Sequence record: KM606994
Reading direction: 5' to 3' (one strand)
Source: Escherichia phage RB3
DNA length: 64,000 nt
The notes under the pieces were generated by a model that was given only the letters and a program-made list of their open reading frames with translations, was not told where the DNA came from and made no database searches. The position numbers and the translations under genes are program-made. Below are positions 15,461-42,867 of this stretch, piece by piece. How positions within the stretch are numbered: the first letter of the stretch is position 1; each line of letters opens with the position of its first letter.

Positions 15461-15480
15461 AAATGAAAAAAGGACTCCCG
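15461..15480 (-). terminator. intrinsic terminator downstream of soc (stem, UUCG loop, U-run)
   Basis: aggactcc-cgaa-ggagtcct preceded by an A-run on the plus strand (U-run on minus transcript). Confidence 0.6.
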
Positions 15481-15495
15481 AAGGAGTCCTTGAAT

Positions 15496-15741
15496 TTATT
15501 CACCAGTTACTTTCCACAAATCTTCATTTGCAGCAATCCATTCAGTACGTTGATTTTCTTCATATACTGTAGAATATGCTGCTTTTTCTGAAGGGAATGT
15601 CTGATAATGAGCACCAGAAATTTTATGAACGTCAGAATAAAGAGGGAAAGCTACGGAAATTTCCTTTCCTTCAATTTTCTTATTTCCATCTAATTTCTGC
15701 TCAAATGTTTTGATATTAACATAACCGCGAGTACTAGCCAT
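15496..15741 (-). CDS. soc: small outer capsid protein Soc (81 aa)
   Basis: Sequence MASTRGYVNIKTFEQKLDGNKK... essentially as T4 Soc. Confidence 0.9.
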   Translation of the reverse strand: MASTRGYVNIKTFEQKLDGNKKIEGKEISVAFPLYSDVHKISGAHYQTFPSEKAAYSTVYEENQRTEWIAANEDLWKVTGE

Positions 15742-15771
15742 GTAATTCTCCTTTTATTTAAATTACATGAT

Positions 15772-15779
15772 TATTTATA
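15772..15779 (-). promoter_or_regulatory. late promoter TATAAATA upstream of soc
   Basis: Plus strand tatttata about 30 nt upstream of soc ATG. Confidence 0.55.
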
Positions 15780-15824
15780 ATAAATTCTCGCGGCTTTTAA
15801 GTCGTCGTTTATTTAAACGAGCTA

Positions 15825-16343
15825 TTAATAGCCTCGGTCTTGACGAGCGAAATTTTCAGCATTTTTCAGATAATAAAGTTTAAATATTTCTTCAGCTGAC
15901 ATTCCAAGAGCAATAAATTTATTCATGAAAAAGTGAAATTGATCAATCAGTTCAAATTTAATTTCAAGCTGATCTTCAGGAGATAAATCTTGAATTTTCT
16001 TGGATTGCATTTCAGAATAACGTTTCTTCCAAGGTTTCCATACAGCAGAAGCTTCTTTTTCACCATTACTCATACCACCAAGAGAAGTATATAGCTCGCG
16101 AGTTTCATCTGCGATATAATCGTCTTGGTTTCGCAACCAAGCAAGAACTTCTCCTGCAGTTTCAAGTGAATCAGGATGACGATTTGTTTCTGGTTTATCA
16201 TTAGCCAAACGAATCTGTAAATGCCGCTGCATGTCAAGCATAACCTGCAGTGGGTCAATATTGTGCATAATATTCTCAGCATATGCACGATTTGCTTTAT
16301 CAACACCTTCGATCAAATGAGCACATTCGTTAAAGTAAGCCAT
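15825..16343 (-). CDS. 56: dCTP/dUTP pyrophosphatase gp56 (MazG-like), 172 aa from first ATG
   Basis: Track ORF trimmed to MAYFNECAHL...; size and position (soc-56-61) as T4 gp56. Confidence 0.8.
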   Translation of the reverse strand: MAYFNECAHLIEGVDKANRAYAENIMHNIDPLQVMLDMQRHLQIRLANDKPETNRHPDSLETAGEVLAWLRNQDDYIADETRELYTSLGGMSNGEKEASAVWKPWKKRYSEMQSKKIQDLSPEDQLEIKFELIDQFHFFMNKFIALGMSAEEIFKLYYLKNAENFARQDRGY

Positions 16344-16414
16344 TATTTTTCCTTTCAATTCATGGGTTAGTAGATTAATTATACAATAAATATATAAAGC
16401 AATAAGGAGGACAT

Positions 16415-16615
16415 ATGGTACAAAAATTAATGGCACTTGTTAATGCCATCAAAGGTAATAAAAAACGTATAGCTTTTACTATTTCTGCTATGGTAGGAAT
16501 TTTACTCTGGAACTTTATTTTATCACCAATTGCTATTGCTCATGGCGTTAGTATTCCAGTAATTACTCTTGATACATTCGTAGATTTAGCATTTGCTTTA
16601 GTTGGGTTAATTTAA
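16415..16615 (+). CDS. plus-strand small hydrophobic protein (66 aa, two predicted TM helices)
   Basis: Strong SD AAGGAGG 4 nt before ATG; opposite strand to all neighbours; lies in the 56-61 intergenic region. Confidence 0.4.
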   Translation: MVQKLMALVNAIKGNKKRIAFTISAMVGILLWNFILSPIAIAHGVSIPVITLDTFVDLAFALVGLI

Positions 16616-16642
16616 ATCTTAGCATATTTAGATAACCGCATT

Positions 16643-17641
16643 TTAGCCATTAACCCCCTGGGCAATATTATTTTTCATATATTCCATAATTTGTTCAGGG
16701 GTTGCACCTTCCTTTCTAATCATATCATTGACATCTTTTGATTTCCAGGGAGATTTATCCCAAAACATAACCCTTTCTCCTGCATCAACTAATTTAGTCA
16801 TTCGTTTAATAGTGTCAGGGTGACGAGGTTCATTATCTAAGACCCACACTCGTCTATCTTTAAATGGAACAATTTCTAGGTCTAATTGACCACCCGTAAT
16901 AGCTATACCATTTTCAATAAAAAGTGAATCTATAGGTCCTTCTAGAACATATACATCACCATCTTTAACTCGTTCGACTCCATAGATTTTTGTTGCCTCA
17001 GGATAAGCTTTAATGGTGATATATTTTTGGGGAGCATCTTTCTTTAATGCACGTCCTTGAAAAGACTCAGCTTTTCCATTAGCATTATAAATTGGAATAA
17101 CAAGACGAGGCTCAGGTATTTCCTTTTTATATGTTCCCGGTGCTATACTATTAACCAATTTAGGCCATTCGGTTGTAAACCAAAGATATTTCCATTTATC
17201 CTTTGGAATACAACGAGCTTTTACATATTTTATAATTGGATGGTCTTCCGCCAGTTTATCTAATCTAACACATGACGGAAGAGATTTAATTATTTTCTTC
17301 TCAGGTTGTTTAGGAAGTTCTTTAGGTTTTTCTATTGGACGACTTTTACCTTTTTCTTTTCTTATTTCAAAGATATACTCACGATATAAATCAGGTTCAA
17401 ACTCCTTTAAATATATTCCGATTGGTGCATGATAGTTACAGTTATAACAATGAATATTTCCTTCATTATTATCACCATAATACCATCCACGAGCTTTATT
17501 CTGGTCGGTTTTTGAATCTCCACAAACAGGACATCTAAACCGTAATTTAAAAGTTGAACTATTATTTACTTGTGTGAATTTAGGTAAATGAGCTAATGCA
17601 CGATACGCAAACTCATTATCAATCCAAGGTATTGATGACAT
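16643..17641 (-). CDS. 61: DNA primase gp61 (332 aa)
   Basis: Zinc ribbon CPVCGD...CYNCNYH plus TOPRIM-like region; adjacent to gene 41. Confidence 0.9.
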   Translation of the reverse strand: MSSIPWIDNEFAYRALAHLPKFTQVNNSSTFKLRFRCPVCGDSKTDQNKARGWYYGDNNEGNIHCYNCNYHAPIGIYLKEFEPDLYREYIFEIRKEKGKSRPIEKPKELPKQPEKKIIKSLPSCVRLDKLAEDHPIIKYVKARCIPKDKWKYLWFTTEWPKLVNSIAPGTYKKEIPEPRLVIPIYNANGKAESFQGRALKKDAPQKYITIKAYPEATKIYGVERVKDGDVYVLEGPIDSLFIENGIAITGGQLDLEIVPFKDRRVWVLDNEPRHPDTIKRMTKLVDAGERVMFWDKSPWKSKDVNDMIRKEGATPEQIMEYMKNNIAQGVNG

Positions 17642-17644
17642 TCT

Positions 17645-17809
17645 TTACTCTTCTTTTTCTTTAGATTCCTCTTTCTTCTTTTTAGGAATCTGTTCAGGAC
17701 CTTTATTTACTACAGCGCCTGACGTTGTTCCAGTAGAGATATTTTCAGGATTACCACCTGAATCTCCAGCGACCATATCTTCTTTGATAAATTCTTTATA
17801 TGTTTTCAT
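17645..17809 (-). CDS. small protein (54 aa) with N-terminus resembling the internal-protein capsid targeting sequence
   Basis: Hand-translated MKTYKEFIKEDMVAGDSGGNPENISTGTTSGAVVNKGPEQIPKKKKEESKEKEE; not in ORF track. Confidence 0.35.
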   Translation of the reverse strand: MKTYKEFIKEDMVAGDSGGNPENISTGTTSGAVVNKGPEQIPKKKKEESKEKEE

Positions 17810-17821
17810 ATTAGCCTCTAA

Positions 17822-18115
17822 TTATTCACCTACCACTTCAGCGATGATATTTTTATTATTGAAGTTTTTATCACAATACAGAACGTAATTATACTGCATT
17901 ACACCACCAGACTTAAGCTGTTTTTGTACTTCAGCTTTCATTTCAGGGCGATCACGCTCAACGATATTCATAATATCTGCTTCAATCTGAGTTTCAACCT
18001 CAGTCTGATCTGCAGTCATAGACCATTCGCACAAATCTTTATCATAACCTGCCATAGCAGGCTGAGCAGCACAAGAAGCTAAAGCAAAAATTGCAGCAAA
18101 AACAAATTTTTTCAT
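17822..18115 (-). CDS. sp: secreted periplasmic protein, spackle-like (97 aa)
   Basis: Signal peptide MKKFVFAAIFALASCAAQPAMA; size and position as T4 sp (61.3). Confidence 0.55.
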   Translation of the reverse strand: MKKFVFAAIFALASCAAQPAMAGYDKDLCEWSMTADQTEVETQIEADIMNIVERDRPEMKAEVQKQLKSGGVMQYNYVLYCDKNFNNKNIIAEVVGE

Positions 18116-42826: not shown

Positions 42827-42867
42827 AATAAACCCTTACCTTAAATAGATAAGGGTATTTATTATTT

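What the first reader, a model, noticed from the sequence alone, without database searches (positions are those of the whole stretch)
16415..16615. Lone plus-strand gene for a small hydrophobic protein between genes 56 and 61
This is the only convincing plus-strand ORF in the window. It has a strong Shine-Dalgarno (AAGGAGG) 4 nt before the ATG and encodes 66 aa with two predicted membrane helices. It sits in the 56-61 intergenic region, so its mRNA would be antisense to read-through transcripts from the minus strand. Candidate roles are a small membrane toxin, a holin or antiholin-like modulator, or an exclusion factor.
Basis: partly seen in the sequence, partly recalled or inferred. Interest (0 to 1): 0.5.

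Follow-up and report, generated by a model that had tools for sequence, protein, structure and literature searches.

The report
Small late membrane-protein gene dam.1
This is a real, conserved 66-codon gene of T4-type phages (noted as "dam.1" in one record, left out of the T4 reference annotation) that is probably switched on late in infection and makes a tiny single-pass inner-membrane protein whose job is still unknown.

Summary
The ORF at 16415-16615 (+) is there exactly as described: ATG, AAGGAGG 4 nt upstream, 66 codons, between gene 56 and gene 61. The window is an RB3/RB5-type Tequatrovirus.

The ORF is a genuine gene. It is intact in about 690 phage records and syntenic in six Tevenvirinae genera, always convergent on gene 61. 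It is under purifying selection: substitutions at codon positions 1/2/3 are 18/7/49, and within-genus dN/dS is 0.07-0.19.

It is already annotated as a hypothetical protein (RB32ORF030w, RB69ORF029w, note "dam.1", PHROG 2024). It is intact but unannotated in the T4 reference.

New here:
- A T4 late-promoter box (AATAAATA, 16385-16392) lies 22 nt before the ATG. It is kept in all 13 lineages checked.
- The 7-mer ATAAATA is otherwise strongly avoided in the window. Its minus-strand copies mark soc, gene 49, rI.-1/rI and e.
- The protein has one transmembrane helix, not two, with predicted N-in/C-out topology.
- Its conserved core (W32 N33, P38, G44, P48, D/E53) faces the periplasmic side.

Function is untested. 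The best guess is a late-acting modulator of a larger membrane protein, possibly in lysis or envelope control. It fails the tests for a canonical holin or a type I toxin. Interest is modest.

The parts
16385..16392 (+). Predicted T4-type late promoter box AATAAATA, the A(-13) variant of TATAAATA. The predicted transcription start is about 16398.
   Evidence: ATAAATA occurs only 9 times in 64 kb against 41.5 +/- 6.9 expected. All five minus-strand copies precede soc, gene 49, rI.-1/rI and e (two copies) by 14-30 nt. This + strand copy ends 22 nt before the ORF's ATG. 12 of 13 lineages have (N)ATAAATA and one has ATTAAATA, in each case ending 12-22 nt before the ATG. The A(-13) variant accounts for 9 of the 50 listed T4 late promoters (PMC2988020). 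The start position is inferred from the box spanning -13 to -6 (PMC1524935).
16404..16410 (+). Shine-Dalgarno AAGGAGG, 4 nt before the ATG.
   Evidence: Read directly. A GGAG(G) core 4-6 nt before the ATG is present in all 13 lineages.
16415..16615 (+). Coding sequence, 66 aa (dam.1 / RB32ORF030w / RB69ORF029w family; PHROG 2024).
   Evidence: Purifying selection is shown.
16415..16468 (+). Residues 1-18: basic N-terminal tail (net charge +5), predicted cytoplasmic. AlphaFold models a helix at residues 2-12.
   Evidence: The cytoplasmic placement is inferred from the positive-inside rule.
16469..16540 (+). Residues 19-42: the single transmembrane helix. It carries the family-conserved W32-N33-F34 and P38 in its outer half.
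   Evidence: The summed Hessa score is 0.4 kcal/mol here and -0.9 to +3.5 in homologues. AlphaFold models a helix at 16-42. Conservation is shown.
16541..16612 (+). Residues 43-66: predicted periplasmic tail. It has the conserved G44, P48 and acidic residue 53, then a short helix at 52-63. It is not a second TM.
16427..16452 (-). Minus-strand hairpin followed by a U-run, antisense to codons 5-13 of the ORF. It could be a terminator or RNA barrier between genes 61 and 56.
   Evidence: Flagged. Free energy is -12.4 kcal/mol with z = -3.6. The equivalent 5' regions of the four other genera, folded on the plus strand only, showed no comparable hairpin.
16378..16402 (-). Putative MotA-type middle promoter for gene 56: TTGCTTTA, 11 nt, TATAAT on the minus strand. 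It lies back-to-back with, and overlaps, the late box.
   Evidence: Read from the sequence. The consensus is from my own knowledge of T4 middle promoters and was not tested.

Best explanation
The ORF is a bona fide T-even phage gene, noted as dam.1 in the RB5 record. It behaves as a small self-contained unit (late promoter, Shine-Dalgarno, ORF) sitting between the primase gene 61 and the dCTPase gene 56, on the opposite strand. Late in infection, gp55-directed RNA polymerase would start at about 16398 from the AATAAATA box. The 17-nt leader carries AAGGAGG. The 66-aa product would insert into the inner membrane as a single-pass protein, with its basic N-terminus in the cytoplasm and its 24-residue acidic C-terminal tail in the periplasm. 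The conserved residues cluster in the outer half of the TM helix and the juxtamembrane stretch: W32, N33, P38, G44, P48 and D/E53. From this I infer that it works like other very small membrane proteins, by binding and modulating a larger membrane protein at the periplasmic face. The most likely arena is late envelope events (lysis timing or lysis inhibition). Shown here: it is a gene, it is conserved, it is under purifying selection, it carries the promoter-box signature, and it has one TM segment. Inferred: late timing, topology, and action through a partner. Guess only: a role in lysis or envelope control, at roughly 0.25-0.3 on its own.
For: Gene reality:
- The ORF is intact in 691 records.
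- It is syntenic and convergent on gene 61 in Tequatro-, Mosig-, Gapriver-, Jiaoda-, Kanagawa- and Gelderlandvirus.
- Substitutions at codon positions 1/2/3 are 18/7/49 (p = 4e-9).
- dN/dS is 0.07-0.19 within genera.
- It matches PHROG 2024 over its full length at E = 8e-31.

Late expression:
- The late box is conserved in 13 of 13 lineages, although the surrounding upstream sequence differs visibly between genera.
- The motif is about 4.6-fold depleted in the window.
- 6 of its 9 copies lie 14-30 nt before a start codon (my estimate P about 2e-8). Four of those genes I recognise as late-expressed (soc, 49, rI.-1/rI, e).
- No sigma-70-like site lies upstream on the + strand.
- Distant family members in unrelated uncultured phages lie co-directional with tail-fibre and tail-tip genes.

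Membrane protein:
- One segment is compatible with membrane insertion, and the C-terminal tail is not.
- AlphaFold gives mean pLDDT 77 with helices at 2-12, 16-42 and 52-63.
- The charge split is +5 on the N-tail and -2 on the C-tail.
- The RB69 orthologue was published with a single TM and no signal peptide.

Conserved core.
Against: There is no transcript, ribosome or protein evidence. None was found in the searchable literature. A published HMM scan did not call a late promoter before the RB69 orthologue. The T4 box (GATAAATA) and the Gelderlandvirus box (ATTAAATA) deviate from consensus, and the in vivo strength of variant boxes is unknown (PMC2988020). From my own knowledge, classical T4 rapid-lysis genetics mapped no r gene to the dam-61 interval, and T4 already has a holin, antiholins and spanins. 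The family is absent from several T4-like genera (Krisch-, Slopek-, Pseudoteven-, Muldoon-, Biquartavirus), so it is not essential to the T4-type life cycle. No library gave any functional hint.
Confidence: 0.6

Rival explanations
1. It is an accessory 'moron'-type gene for inter-phage competition or counter-defence. On this view, the small membrane protein is made late to block superinfecting phages or to neutralise a membrane-based host abortive-infection system, rather than to control the phage's own lysis.
For: The unit is inserted between genes 61 and 56, which abut directly in other T4-like genera. It has its own promoter, and in Jiaodavirus a GC-rich hairpin follows it immediately. Distant members sit at typical accessory-gene positions. 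These include the space after tail-fibre genes beside homing endonucleases, a prophage end next to host genes, and a position in front of a RelA_SpoT gene. Spackle, an exclusion protein, lies about 1.2 kb away.
Against: There was no PADLOC, Pfam or NCBIfam match. From my own knowledge, the known T4 exclusion proteins Imm and Sp act early, whereas this gene looks late. Conservation at one fixed position in all six Tevenvirinae genera sampled is unusual for a shuffled accessory gene.
Confidence: 0.22
2. It is a holin, antiholin or pinholin-like lysis protein in the strict sense.
For: The protein is small and membrane-inserted, and is predicted to be late. One UniRef entry for a homologue is labelled 'Holin'. 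In one uncultured prophage a family member lies 1.5 kb from a lysozyme gene.
Against: The charged tail is N-terminal and the C-terminus is hydrophobic and acidic, the reverse of the usual holin layout. In this window the endolysin gene e is about 47 kb away. The T4-type holin t is a different protein, and from my own knowledge t mutants do not lyse. The 'Holin' label is a single automatic name among more than 150 'hypothetical' ones.
Confidence: 0.08
3. The selected function is at the RNA level. A late transcript reads antisense into gene 61 to shut off primase synthesis, and the ORF is secondary.
For: The stop codons of the ORF and gene 61 overlap by 4 nt in T4, RB5, RB14, Mosig-, Kanagawa- and Gelderlandvirus. 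No + strand terminator-like site follows the ORF for at least 1.6 kb.
Against: The protein sequence itself is under purifying selection. Jiaodavirus has a GC-rich hairpin between the two genes, and VR7 has a 200-nt spacer. Homologues exist in phages with no adjacent primase gene.
Confidence: 0.05
4. It is a type I toxin-like membrane peptide held in check by antisense read-through RNA.
For: The product is a small hydrophobic peptide. Minus-strand transcription from gene 61 toward gene 56 must cross the ORF. A stable minus-strand hairpin lies inside the ORF.
Against: No Rfam antisense RNA family matches. The hairpin is not seen in the other genera folded (plus strand only). The gene carries a conserved late promoter like ordinary late genes. 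A strictly lytic phage has no obvious use for a post-segregational toxin.
Confidence: 0.03
5. It is a chance ORF or an annotation artefact.
For: The ORF is short, and the T4 reference genome does not annotate it.
Against: Codon-position bias, dN/dS, conserved start, Shine-Dalgarno, frame and length hold across genera whose synonymous sites are saturated. The HMM family is recovered from 1.84 billion representative proteins.
Confidence: 0.02

Closest known systems
RB32ORF030w / RB69ORF029w / VR7ORF033w / 'dam.1' hypothetical proteins (PHROG 2024)
   Same: It is the same gene. The window protein is 100% identical to RB3_032 and RB5_032. It matches PHROG 2024 over its full length. It has the same position and orientation.
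   Different: Nothing differs in sequence terms. None of these entries carries a function, a promoter assignment or a topology beyond a single-TM prediction for RB69.
T4 late genes embedded in the early region with their own TATAAATA-type promoter (soc, gene 49, rI.-1/rI, e)
   Same: It has the same type of box at the same distance from the start codon, followed by a strong Shine-Dalgarno.
   Different: Those genes lie on the minus strand, and I know them as late-expressed genes. This is the only one in the window on the plus strand, and its late transcription is only inferred.
Small single-pass bacterial membrane regulators such as AcrZ, MgrB, MgtS (own knowledge)
   Same: The size is similar (about 50-70 aa) and there is one TM helix. 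Conservation is concentrated in and next to the membrane, which implies action by binding a larger membrane protein.
   Different: There is no sequence relationship, and no partner is known here. This is an analogy, not a membership claim.
Phage holins and antiholins (T4 T/RI; lambda S; S21 pinholin)
   Same: The protein is small, membrane-inserted and made late.
   Different: The charge layout is reversed. The gene is not next to an endolysin gene in T-even phages. There is no similarity to any holin family in Pfam or PHROGs.
Morons (promoter-ORF-terminator units inserted between conserved phage genes)
   Same: The unit is inserted at the 61/56 junction, which is uninterrupted in other T4-like genera. 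It has its own promoter.
   Different: A GC-rich hairpin (candidate terminator) after the ORF is seen only in Jiaodavirus. The gene is fixed across a whole subfamily rather than sporadic.
Type I toxins (Hok, TisB, Ldr)
   Same: The product is a short hydrophobic peptide, and the opposite strand is transcribed.
   Different: There is no dedicated antisense RNA, no Rfam match, and the genome is that of a lytic phage.

Membership tests
PHROG 2024 (dam.1 / RB32ORF030w family) | Full-length match to the family profile | tested here: met
   E = 7.8e-31, residues 2-66 against profile positions 1-65 of 65.
PHROG 2024 (dam.1 / RB32ORF030w family) | Conserved position: convergent on the 3' end of primase gene 61 | tested here: met
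   In this window the 4-nt stop overlap is lost through a 1-nt insertion in gene 61.
T4 late gene | TATAAATA-type box about 6 nt upstream of the transcription start, with no -35 element needed | tested here: met
   AATAAATA at 16385-16392. The A(-13) variant is the commonest deviation in T4. The box is conserved in 13 lineages and the motif is depleted elsewhere in the window.
T4 late gene | Transcript appears after DNA replication starts and depends on gp55, gp33 and gp45 | not testable with these tools
   This needs time-resolved strand-specific RNA data in wild-type and 55/33/45 amber infections. No such data were found in the literature.
T4 late gene | Polarity compatible with late transcription (early and middle transcripts are all counterclockwise) | tested here: met
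   The ORF lies on the strand opposite to the surrounding early and middle genes. The rule is stated in PMC2988020.
Holin | At least one TM domain in a small protein | tested here: met
   One TM, about residues 19-42.
Holin | Highly charged, hydrophilic C-terminal tail | tested here: not met
   The C-terminal 24 residues are hydrophobic with two Asp. The basic tail is N-terminal.
Holin | Encoded next to the endolysin or lysis cassette | tested here: not met
   Gene e starts near 63.4 kb, about 47 kb away. The neighbours are primase and dCTPase.
Holin | Causes membrane lesions or lysis when expressed with an endolysin | not testable with these tools
   This needs an expression experiment.
Type I toxin-antitoxin | Dedicated antisense small RNA with its own promoter and terminator | tested here: inconclusive
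   No Rfam match. A minus-strand hairpin with a U-run exists, but it reads better as a gene 61 terminator. The other genera, folded on the plus strand only, showed no comparable hairpin.
Type I toxin-antitoxin | Peptide toxic to the cell on expression | not testable with these tools
   This needs inducible expression.
T4 superinfection-exclusion proteins (Imm, Sp) | Sequence or profile similarity to Imm or Spackle | tested here: not met
   Pfam returned nothing. The PHROGs scan returned only families of unknown function.
Moron | Inserted between two genes that are adjacent in related genomes | tested here: met
   Genes 61 and 56 are 7-36 nt apart in Krisch-, Slopek-, Pseudoteven- and Muldoonvirus.
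Moron | Own promoter and own terminator | tested here: inconclusive
   A promoter box is present in all lineages. A GC-rich hairpin that could act as a terminator is seen only in Jiaodavirus. None follows the ORF in this window.

The most novel reading that the evidence does not exclude
T4 itself, the most intensively studied phage, carries an unannotated late gene (T4 17738-17938, + strand). On the most novel reading not excluded here, its single-pass membrane product is a previously unrecognised player in late envelope events. It could act as an extra regulator of holin T, lysis inhibition or spanin function. Alternatively it could be a late-acting shield against membrane-based host defence, working through its conserved periplasm-facing W-N ... 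P ... G ... P ... D/E surface.
Probability: 0.2. Interest if true: 0.6.

Novelty: already known. Interest (0 to 1): 0.33.

Why it matters
The gene is not new to the databases. Hundreds of T4-like genomes list it as a hypothetical protein, and it forms PHROG 2024. However, it is missing from the T4 reference annotation that most transcriptomic, proteomic and knockout screens use, so those screens would not have scored it. This analysis shows that it is under selection, that it is very probably a late gene, and that it is a single-pass membrane protein with a conserved periplasm-facing surface. That turns a nameless ORF into a specific and cheap experimental target in a model phage. If it proved to affect lysis timing, exclusion or defence evasion, it would add a component to systems thought to be fully catalogued. 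If it does nothing measurable, it is one more conserved small phage ORF.

Tried and rejected
Library searches that gave no functional hint:
- Pfam, NCBIfam and PADLOC scans gave no match.
- A PDB sequence-profile search gave only insignificant TM-segment matches.
- A Foldseek search against BFVD returned only family members.
- An Rfam scan of 15700-17300 returned nothing relevant.

Literature searches that found nothing about this gene:
- The ORF names, "dam.1", T4 ribosome profiling, T4 transcription start mapping and T4 proteogenomics.
- The Miller et al. 2003 T4 genome review is not held.

Other dead ends:
- tblastn of the distant members P0105 and P0109 against cultured phages gave no match, so those phage types remain unidentified.
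- PHROG scans of their neighbours gave only tail, endonuclease VII and unknown-function hits, with no holin or endolysin beside the gene.

Ideas considered and rejected:
- A second transmembrane helix.
- A conserved 5' mRNA structure (no consistent fold).
- A cleavable signal peptide. Residues 40-42 read A-I-A in this phage. Family members carry M, F or N at the -1 position. The hydrophobic segment is 24 residues long. SignalP was negative for the RB69 orthologue. I rate cleavage as unlikely, but I could not run a predictor.

Full report
**What is there**

The window is a T4-type phage (Tequatrovirus). The 1.9 kb around the finding is 99.9% identical to RB5, RB6, RB7, RB9 and RB10. The predicted protein is identical to RB3_032 and RB5_032.

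The ORF runs 16415-16615 on the plus strand. It starts with ATG, ends with TAA and has 66 codons. AAGGAGG lies at 16404-16410, 4 nt before the ATG.

On the minus strand it is flanked by gene 56 (dCTPase, 15825-16343) and gene 61 (primase, 16643-17641). I scanned all plus-strand ORFs of at least 35 codons that are not mostly covered by a longer minus-strand ORF. This is the only one with both an ATG and a Shine-Dalgarno.

**Is it a gene?**

Yes, on three lines of evidence.

- **Spread.** tblastn finds the ORF intact in 691 phage records. About 500 are at 80-100% identity and 190 at about 50%.
- **Synteny.** The weaker matches are real. In Mosigvirus ST0, Gaprivervirus VR7, Jiaodavirus JIPh_Kp122, Kanagawavirus CIP9 and KLB31, and a Gelderlandvirus, an annotated 61-69-codon ORF sits in the same place. 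It lies on the strand opposite to its neighbours and converges on the 3' end of gene 61. Its stop codon usually overlaps the gene 61 stop by 4 nt. Two metagenomic T4-like contigs show the same arrangement.
- **Selection.** In four phylogenetically independent within-genus pairs, substitutions fall 18/7/49 on codon positions 1/2/3 (chi-square p = 4e-9). Nei-Gojobori dN/dS is 0.07-0.19 within genera. Between genera, synonymous sites are saturated while the proteins remain about 50% identical.

A profile search of 1.84 billion representative proteins recovers only 18 clusters, so the family is small and specific.

**Is it known?**

As an ORF, yes. It is annotated as RB32ORF030w in RB14, said to be "similar to RB69ORF029w". 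It is VR7ORF033w in VR7. It matches PHROG 2024, function unknown, at E = 8e-31.

Every named member read in its 90% cluster is "hypothetical" or "uncharacterized". One homologue in a separate cluster carries the UniRef label "Holin".

The T4 reference records NC_000866 and AF158101 do not annotate it. The ORF is nevertheless intact at 17738-17938, in the 309-nt gap between dam and gene 61. I found no paper that discusses it.

**When is it expressed?**

Two arguments point to late expression.

[quoted passage not shown] Only late transcripts can have either polarity (PMC2988020). No sigma-70-like site lies upstream on the plus strand.

*A conserved late box.* An AATAAATA box lies at 16385-16392, ending 22 nt before the ATG.
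- The late-promoter consensus is TATAAATA at -13 to -6 (PMC1524935). A at -13 is the commonest variant, found in 9 of the 50 listed T4 sites.
- The 7-mer ATAAATA is strongly avoided in this window: 9 copies against 41.5 +/- 6.9 expected.
- Its five minus-strand copies all lie 14-30 nt before the start codons of genes I recognise as late-expressed. These are soc, gene 49, rI.-1/rI, and e with two copies.
- With the copy before this ORF, 6 of 9 copies lie just upstream of a start codon. About 2.5% would be expected by position alone, giving my estimate of P about 2e-8.
- Across 13 lineages the sequence upstream of the ORF differs visibly between genera. Even so, 12 have (N)ATAAATA and one has ATTAAATA, each ending 12-22 nt before the ATG. 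CIP9 has the perfect TATAAATA.

The box is not explained by the divergent gene 56 promoter. The putative MotA box lies on different sides of it in the window and in VR7, judging from the sequences.

A 2006 HMM scan did not list a late promoter before RB69ORF029w, so this assignment is new and remains an inference. The predicted start is about 16398, which gives a 17-nt leader.

**What is the protein?**

- **N-terminus.** Residues 1-18 are basic (net +5). AlphaFold models a helix at 2-12.
- **Transmembrane segment.** Residues 19-42 form the only membrane-competent segment. My position-independent sum of the Hessa scale over 19 residues is 0.4 kcal/mol here, and -0.9 to +3.5 in six homologues.
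- **C-terminal stretch.** It scores +5.3 to +12.4 in every lineage. It carries Glu, Lys, His or Arg in the distant members.
- **Model.** AlphaFold2 with a 26-sequence alignment gives mean pLDDT 77, with helices at 2-12, 16-42 and 52-63 and a loop at 43-51.
- **Published prediction.** The RB69 orthologue was predicted to have one TM at 21-41 and no signal peptide.

So there is one TM helix, not two. The charge distribution predicts N-in/C-out topology.

Across 19 diverse members, P38 is invariant. W32 is nearly invariant, with one Tyr. N33 is replaced by Asp in two members. G44, P48 and an acidic residue at position 53 are kept in almost all. The N-terminal tail is conserved only in being basic. 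The conserved surface is therefore the outer half of the helix plus the periplasmic juxtamembrane stretch. I take this as a sign of a specific partner on that side of the membrane.

**Distribution and context**

The gene is present in six Tevenvirinae genera. It is absent where genes 61 and 56 abut directly, 7-36 nt apart: Krisch-, Slopek-, Pseudoteven- and Muldoonvirus. It is also absent from the annotated gene 61 region of Biquartavirus, where gene 61 is followed by an endonuclease gene. It therefore looks like an insertion at that junction that became fixed in one subfamily.

T4 has dam between gene 56 and the ORF, and this window does not. The ORF stays with gene 61 in both.

Three distant members match PHROG 2024 at E = 6e-11 to 2e-9. 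They lie in uncultured, unrelated phage or prophage contigs, co-directional with tail-fibre and tail-tip genes. Two follow a 94-aa TM-plus-coiled-coil protein and an endonuclease VII gene. One lies at a prophage end, 1.5 kb from a lysozyme gene. Another precedes a RelA_SpoT gene on a short contig. These contexts agree with late expression and accessory status but do not reveal a function.

**Mechanism and rivals**

The best-supported account is a late-transcribed, Shine-Dalgarno-led gene for a single-pass inner-membrane protein that acts by binding a larger membrane protein at the periplasmic face. Which process it touches is a guess.

- **Late envelope events (lysis timing or lysis inhibition): about 0.25-0.3.** This is what small late phage membrane proteins usually do.
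- **Competition or counter-defence accessory gene: about 0.2.**
- **Canonical holin: unlikely.** The charge layout is reversed, the gene is far from e, and T4 has its own holin.
- **Purely RNA-level antisense role against gene 61: unlikely.** It conflicts with selection on the protein. Jiaodavirus has a GC-rich hairpin between the genes and VR7 has a 200-nt spacer. Antisense read-through into gene 61 is still likely to occur here, because no plus-strand terminator follows the ORF.
- **Type I toxin: unlikely.** There is no sign of a dedicated antisense RNA.
- **Chance ORF: excluded.**

**Verdict**

The feature is real and conserved. It is already catalogued as a hypothetical gene and is functionally uncharacterised. 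Interest is modest. The useful outputs are the late-promoter assignment, the corrected topology, the conserved periplasm-facing motif, and the note that the T4 reference annotation lacks this gene.

Noticed in passing
window 16654-16658 (gene 61, minus strand, last ~10 codons): The window has a run of five C where RB5, T4 and RB14 have four. This shifts the frame, so gene 61 ends at 16643 (332 aa, '...AQGVNG') instead of 16612 (342 aa, '...AQGLMAKMRLSKYAKI'). The 4-nt stop/stop overlap with the small ORF is lost. It may be a homopolymer sequencing error or a real variant.
   Followed up: partly
window 16427-16452 (minus strand), U-run to ~16417: A stable hairpin (-12.4 kcal/mol, z = -3.6) followed by UUAAUUUUUG lies on the minus strand, antisense to codons 5-13 of the ORF. 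It could terminate or stabilise gene 61 transcripts before gene 56. No comparable hairpin appeared when the other four genera were folded, on the plus strand only.
   Followed up: partly
window 16378-16402 (minus strand): The minus strand reads TTGCTTTA, then 11 nt, then TATAAT, just upstream of gene 56. This looks like a MotA-dependent middle promoter. It overlaps the plus-strand late box, giving back-to-back promoters of different temporal classes in a 71-nt spacer. Similar arrangements are visible in VR7 and ST0, with the box on the other side of the MotA box in VR7.
   Followed up: partly
window 7370, 61284, 63835 (+ strand): The other three plus-strand ATAAATA copies (CATAAATA, AATAAATA, CATAAATA) are not followed by an ORF with a Shine-Dalgarno. 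Given how strongly the motif is avoided (9 copies against about 41 expected), they might be antisense late promoters inside early genes.
   Followed up: no
L001 3739-3939 = T4 NC_000866 17738-17938 (+): The T4 reference genome has this ORF intact (66 aa, 4 differences from the window protein), with GATAAATA and AAGGAGG upstream, but no CDS is annotated there. The exact T4 protein is held only from Logan read assemblies, with no named database entry.
   Followed up: yes
window 16344-16414 versus L001 2787-3738: T4 carries dam (780 nt) between gene 56 and the small ORF. This RB3/RB5-type window has no dam there, only a 71-nt spacer.
   Followed up: no
L030 4260-5210; L037 5263-6153; L038 2486-3376: In uncultured non-T4 phage contigs the family member follows a conserved trio. 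The order is tail-fibre or tail-tip gene, a 94-aa protein with an N-terminal TM and a coiled coil, an endonuclease VII gene, then the small membrane protein. In L037 and L038 a GIY-YIG homing endonuclease gene lies next door.
   Followed up: partly
L033 129-1383: One distant family member (P0104) lies directly upstream of a 352-aa RelA_SpoT-domain gene on a 2.2-kb contig. This may be a defence or toxin-type accessory locus.
   Followed up: no
window 15470-15491: A perfect bidirectional GC-rich hairpin (AAGGACTCC-CGAA-GGAGTCCTT) with T-runs on both sides lies just downstream of soc.
   Followed up: no
window 42856-42862 (minus strand): The late-type box before gene 49 (endonuclease VII) is AATAAATA, the same variant as before the small ORF. 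A hairpin-forming sequence follows it immediately, just before the start codon.
   Followed up: no
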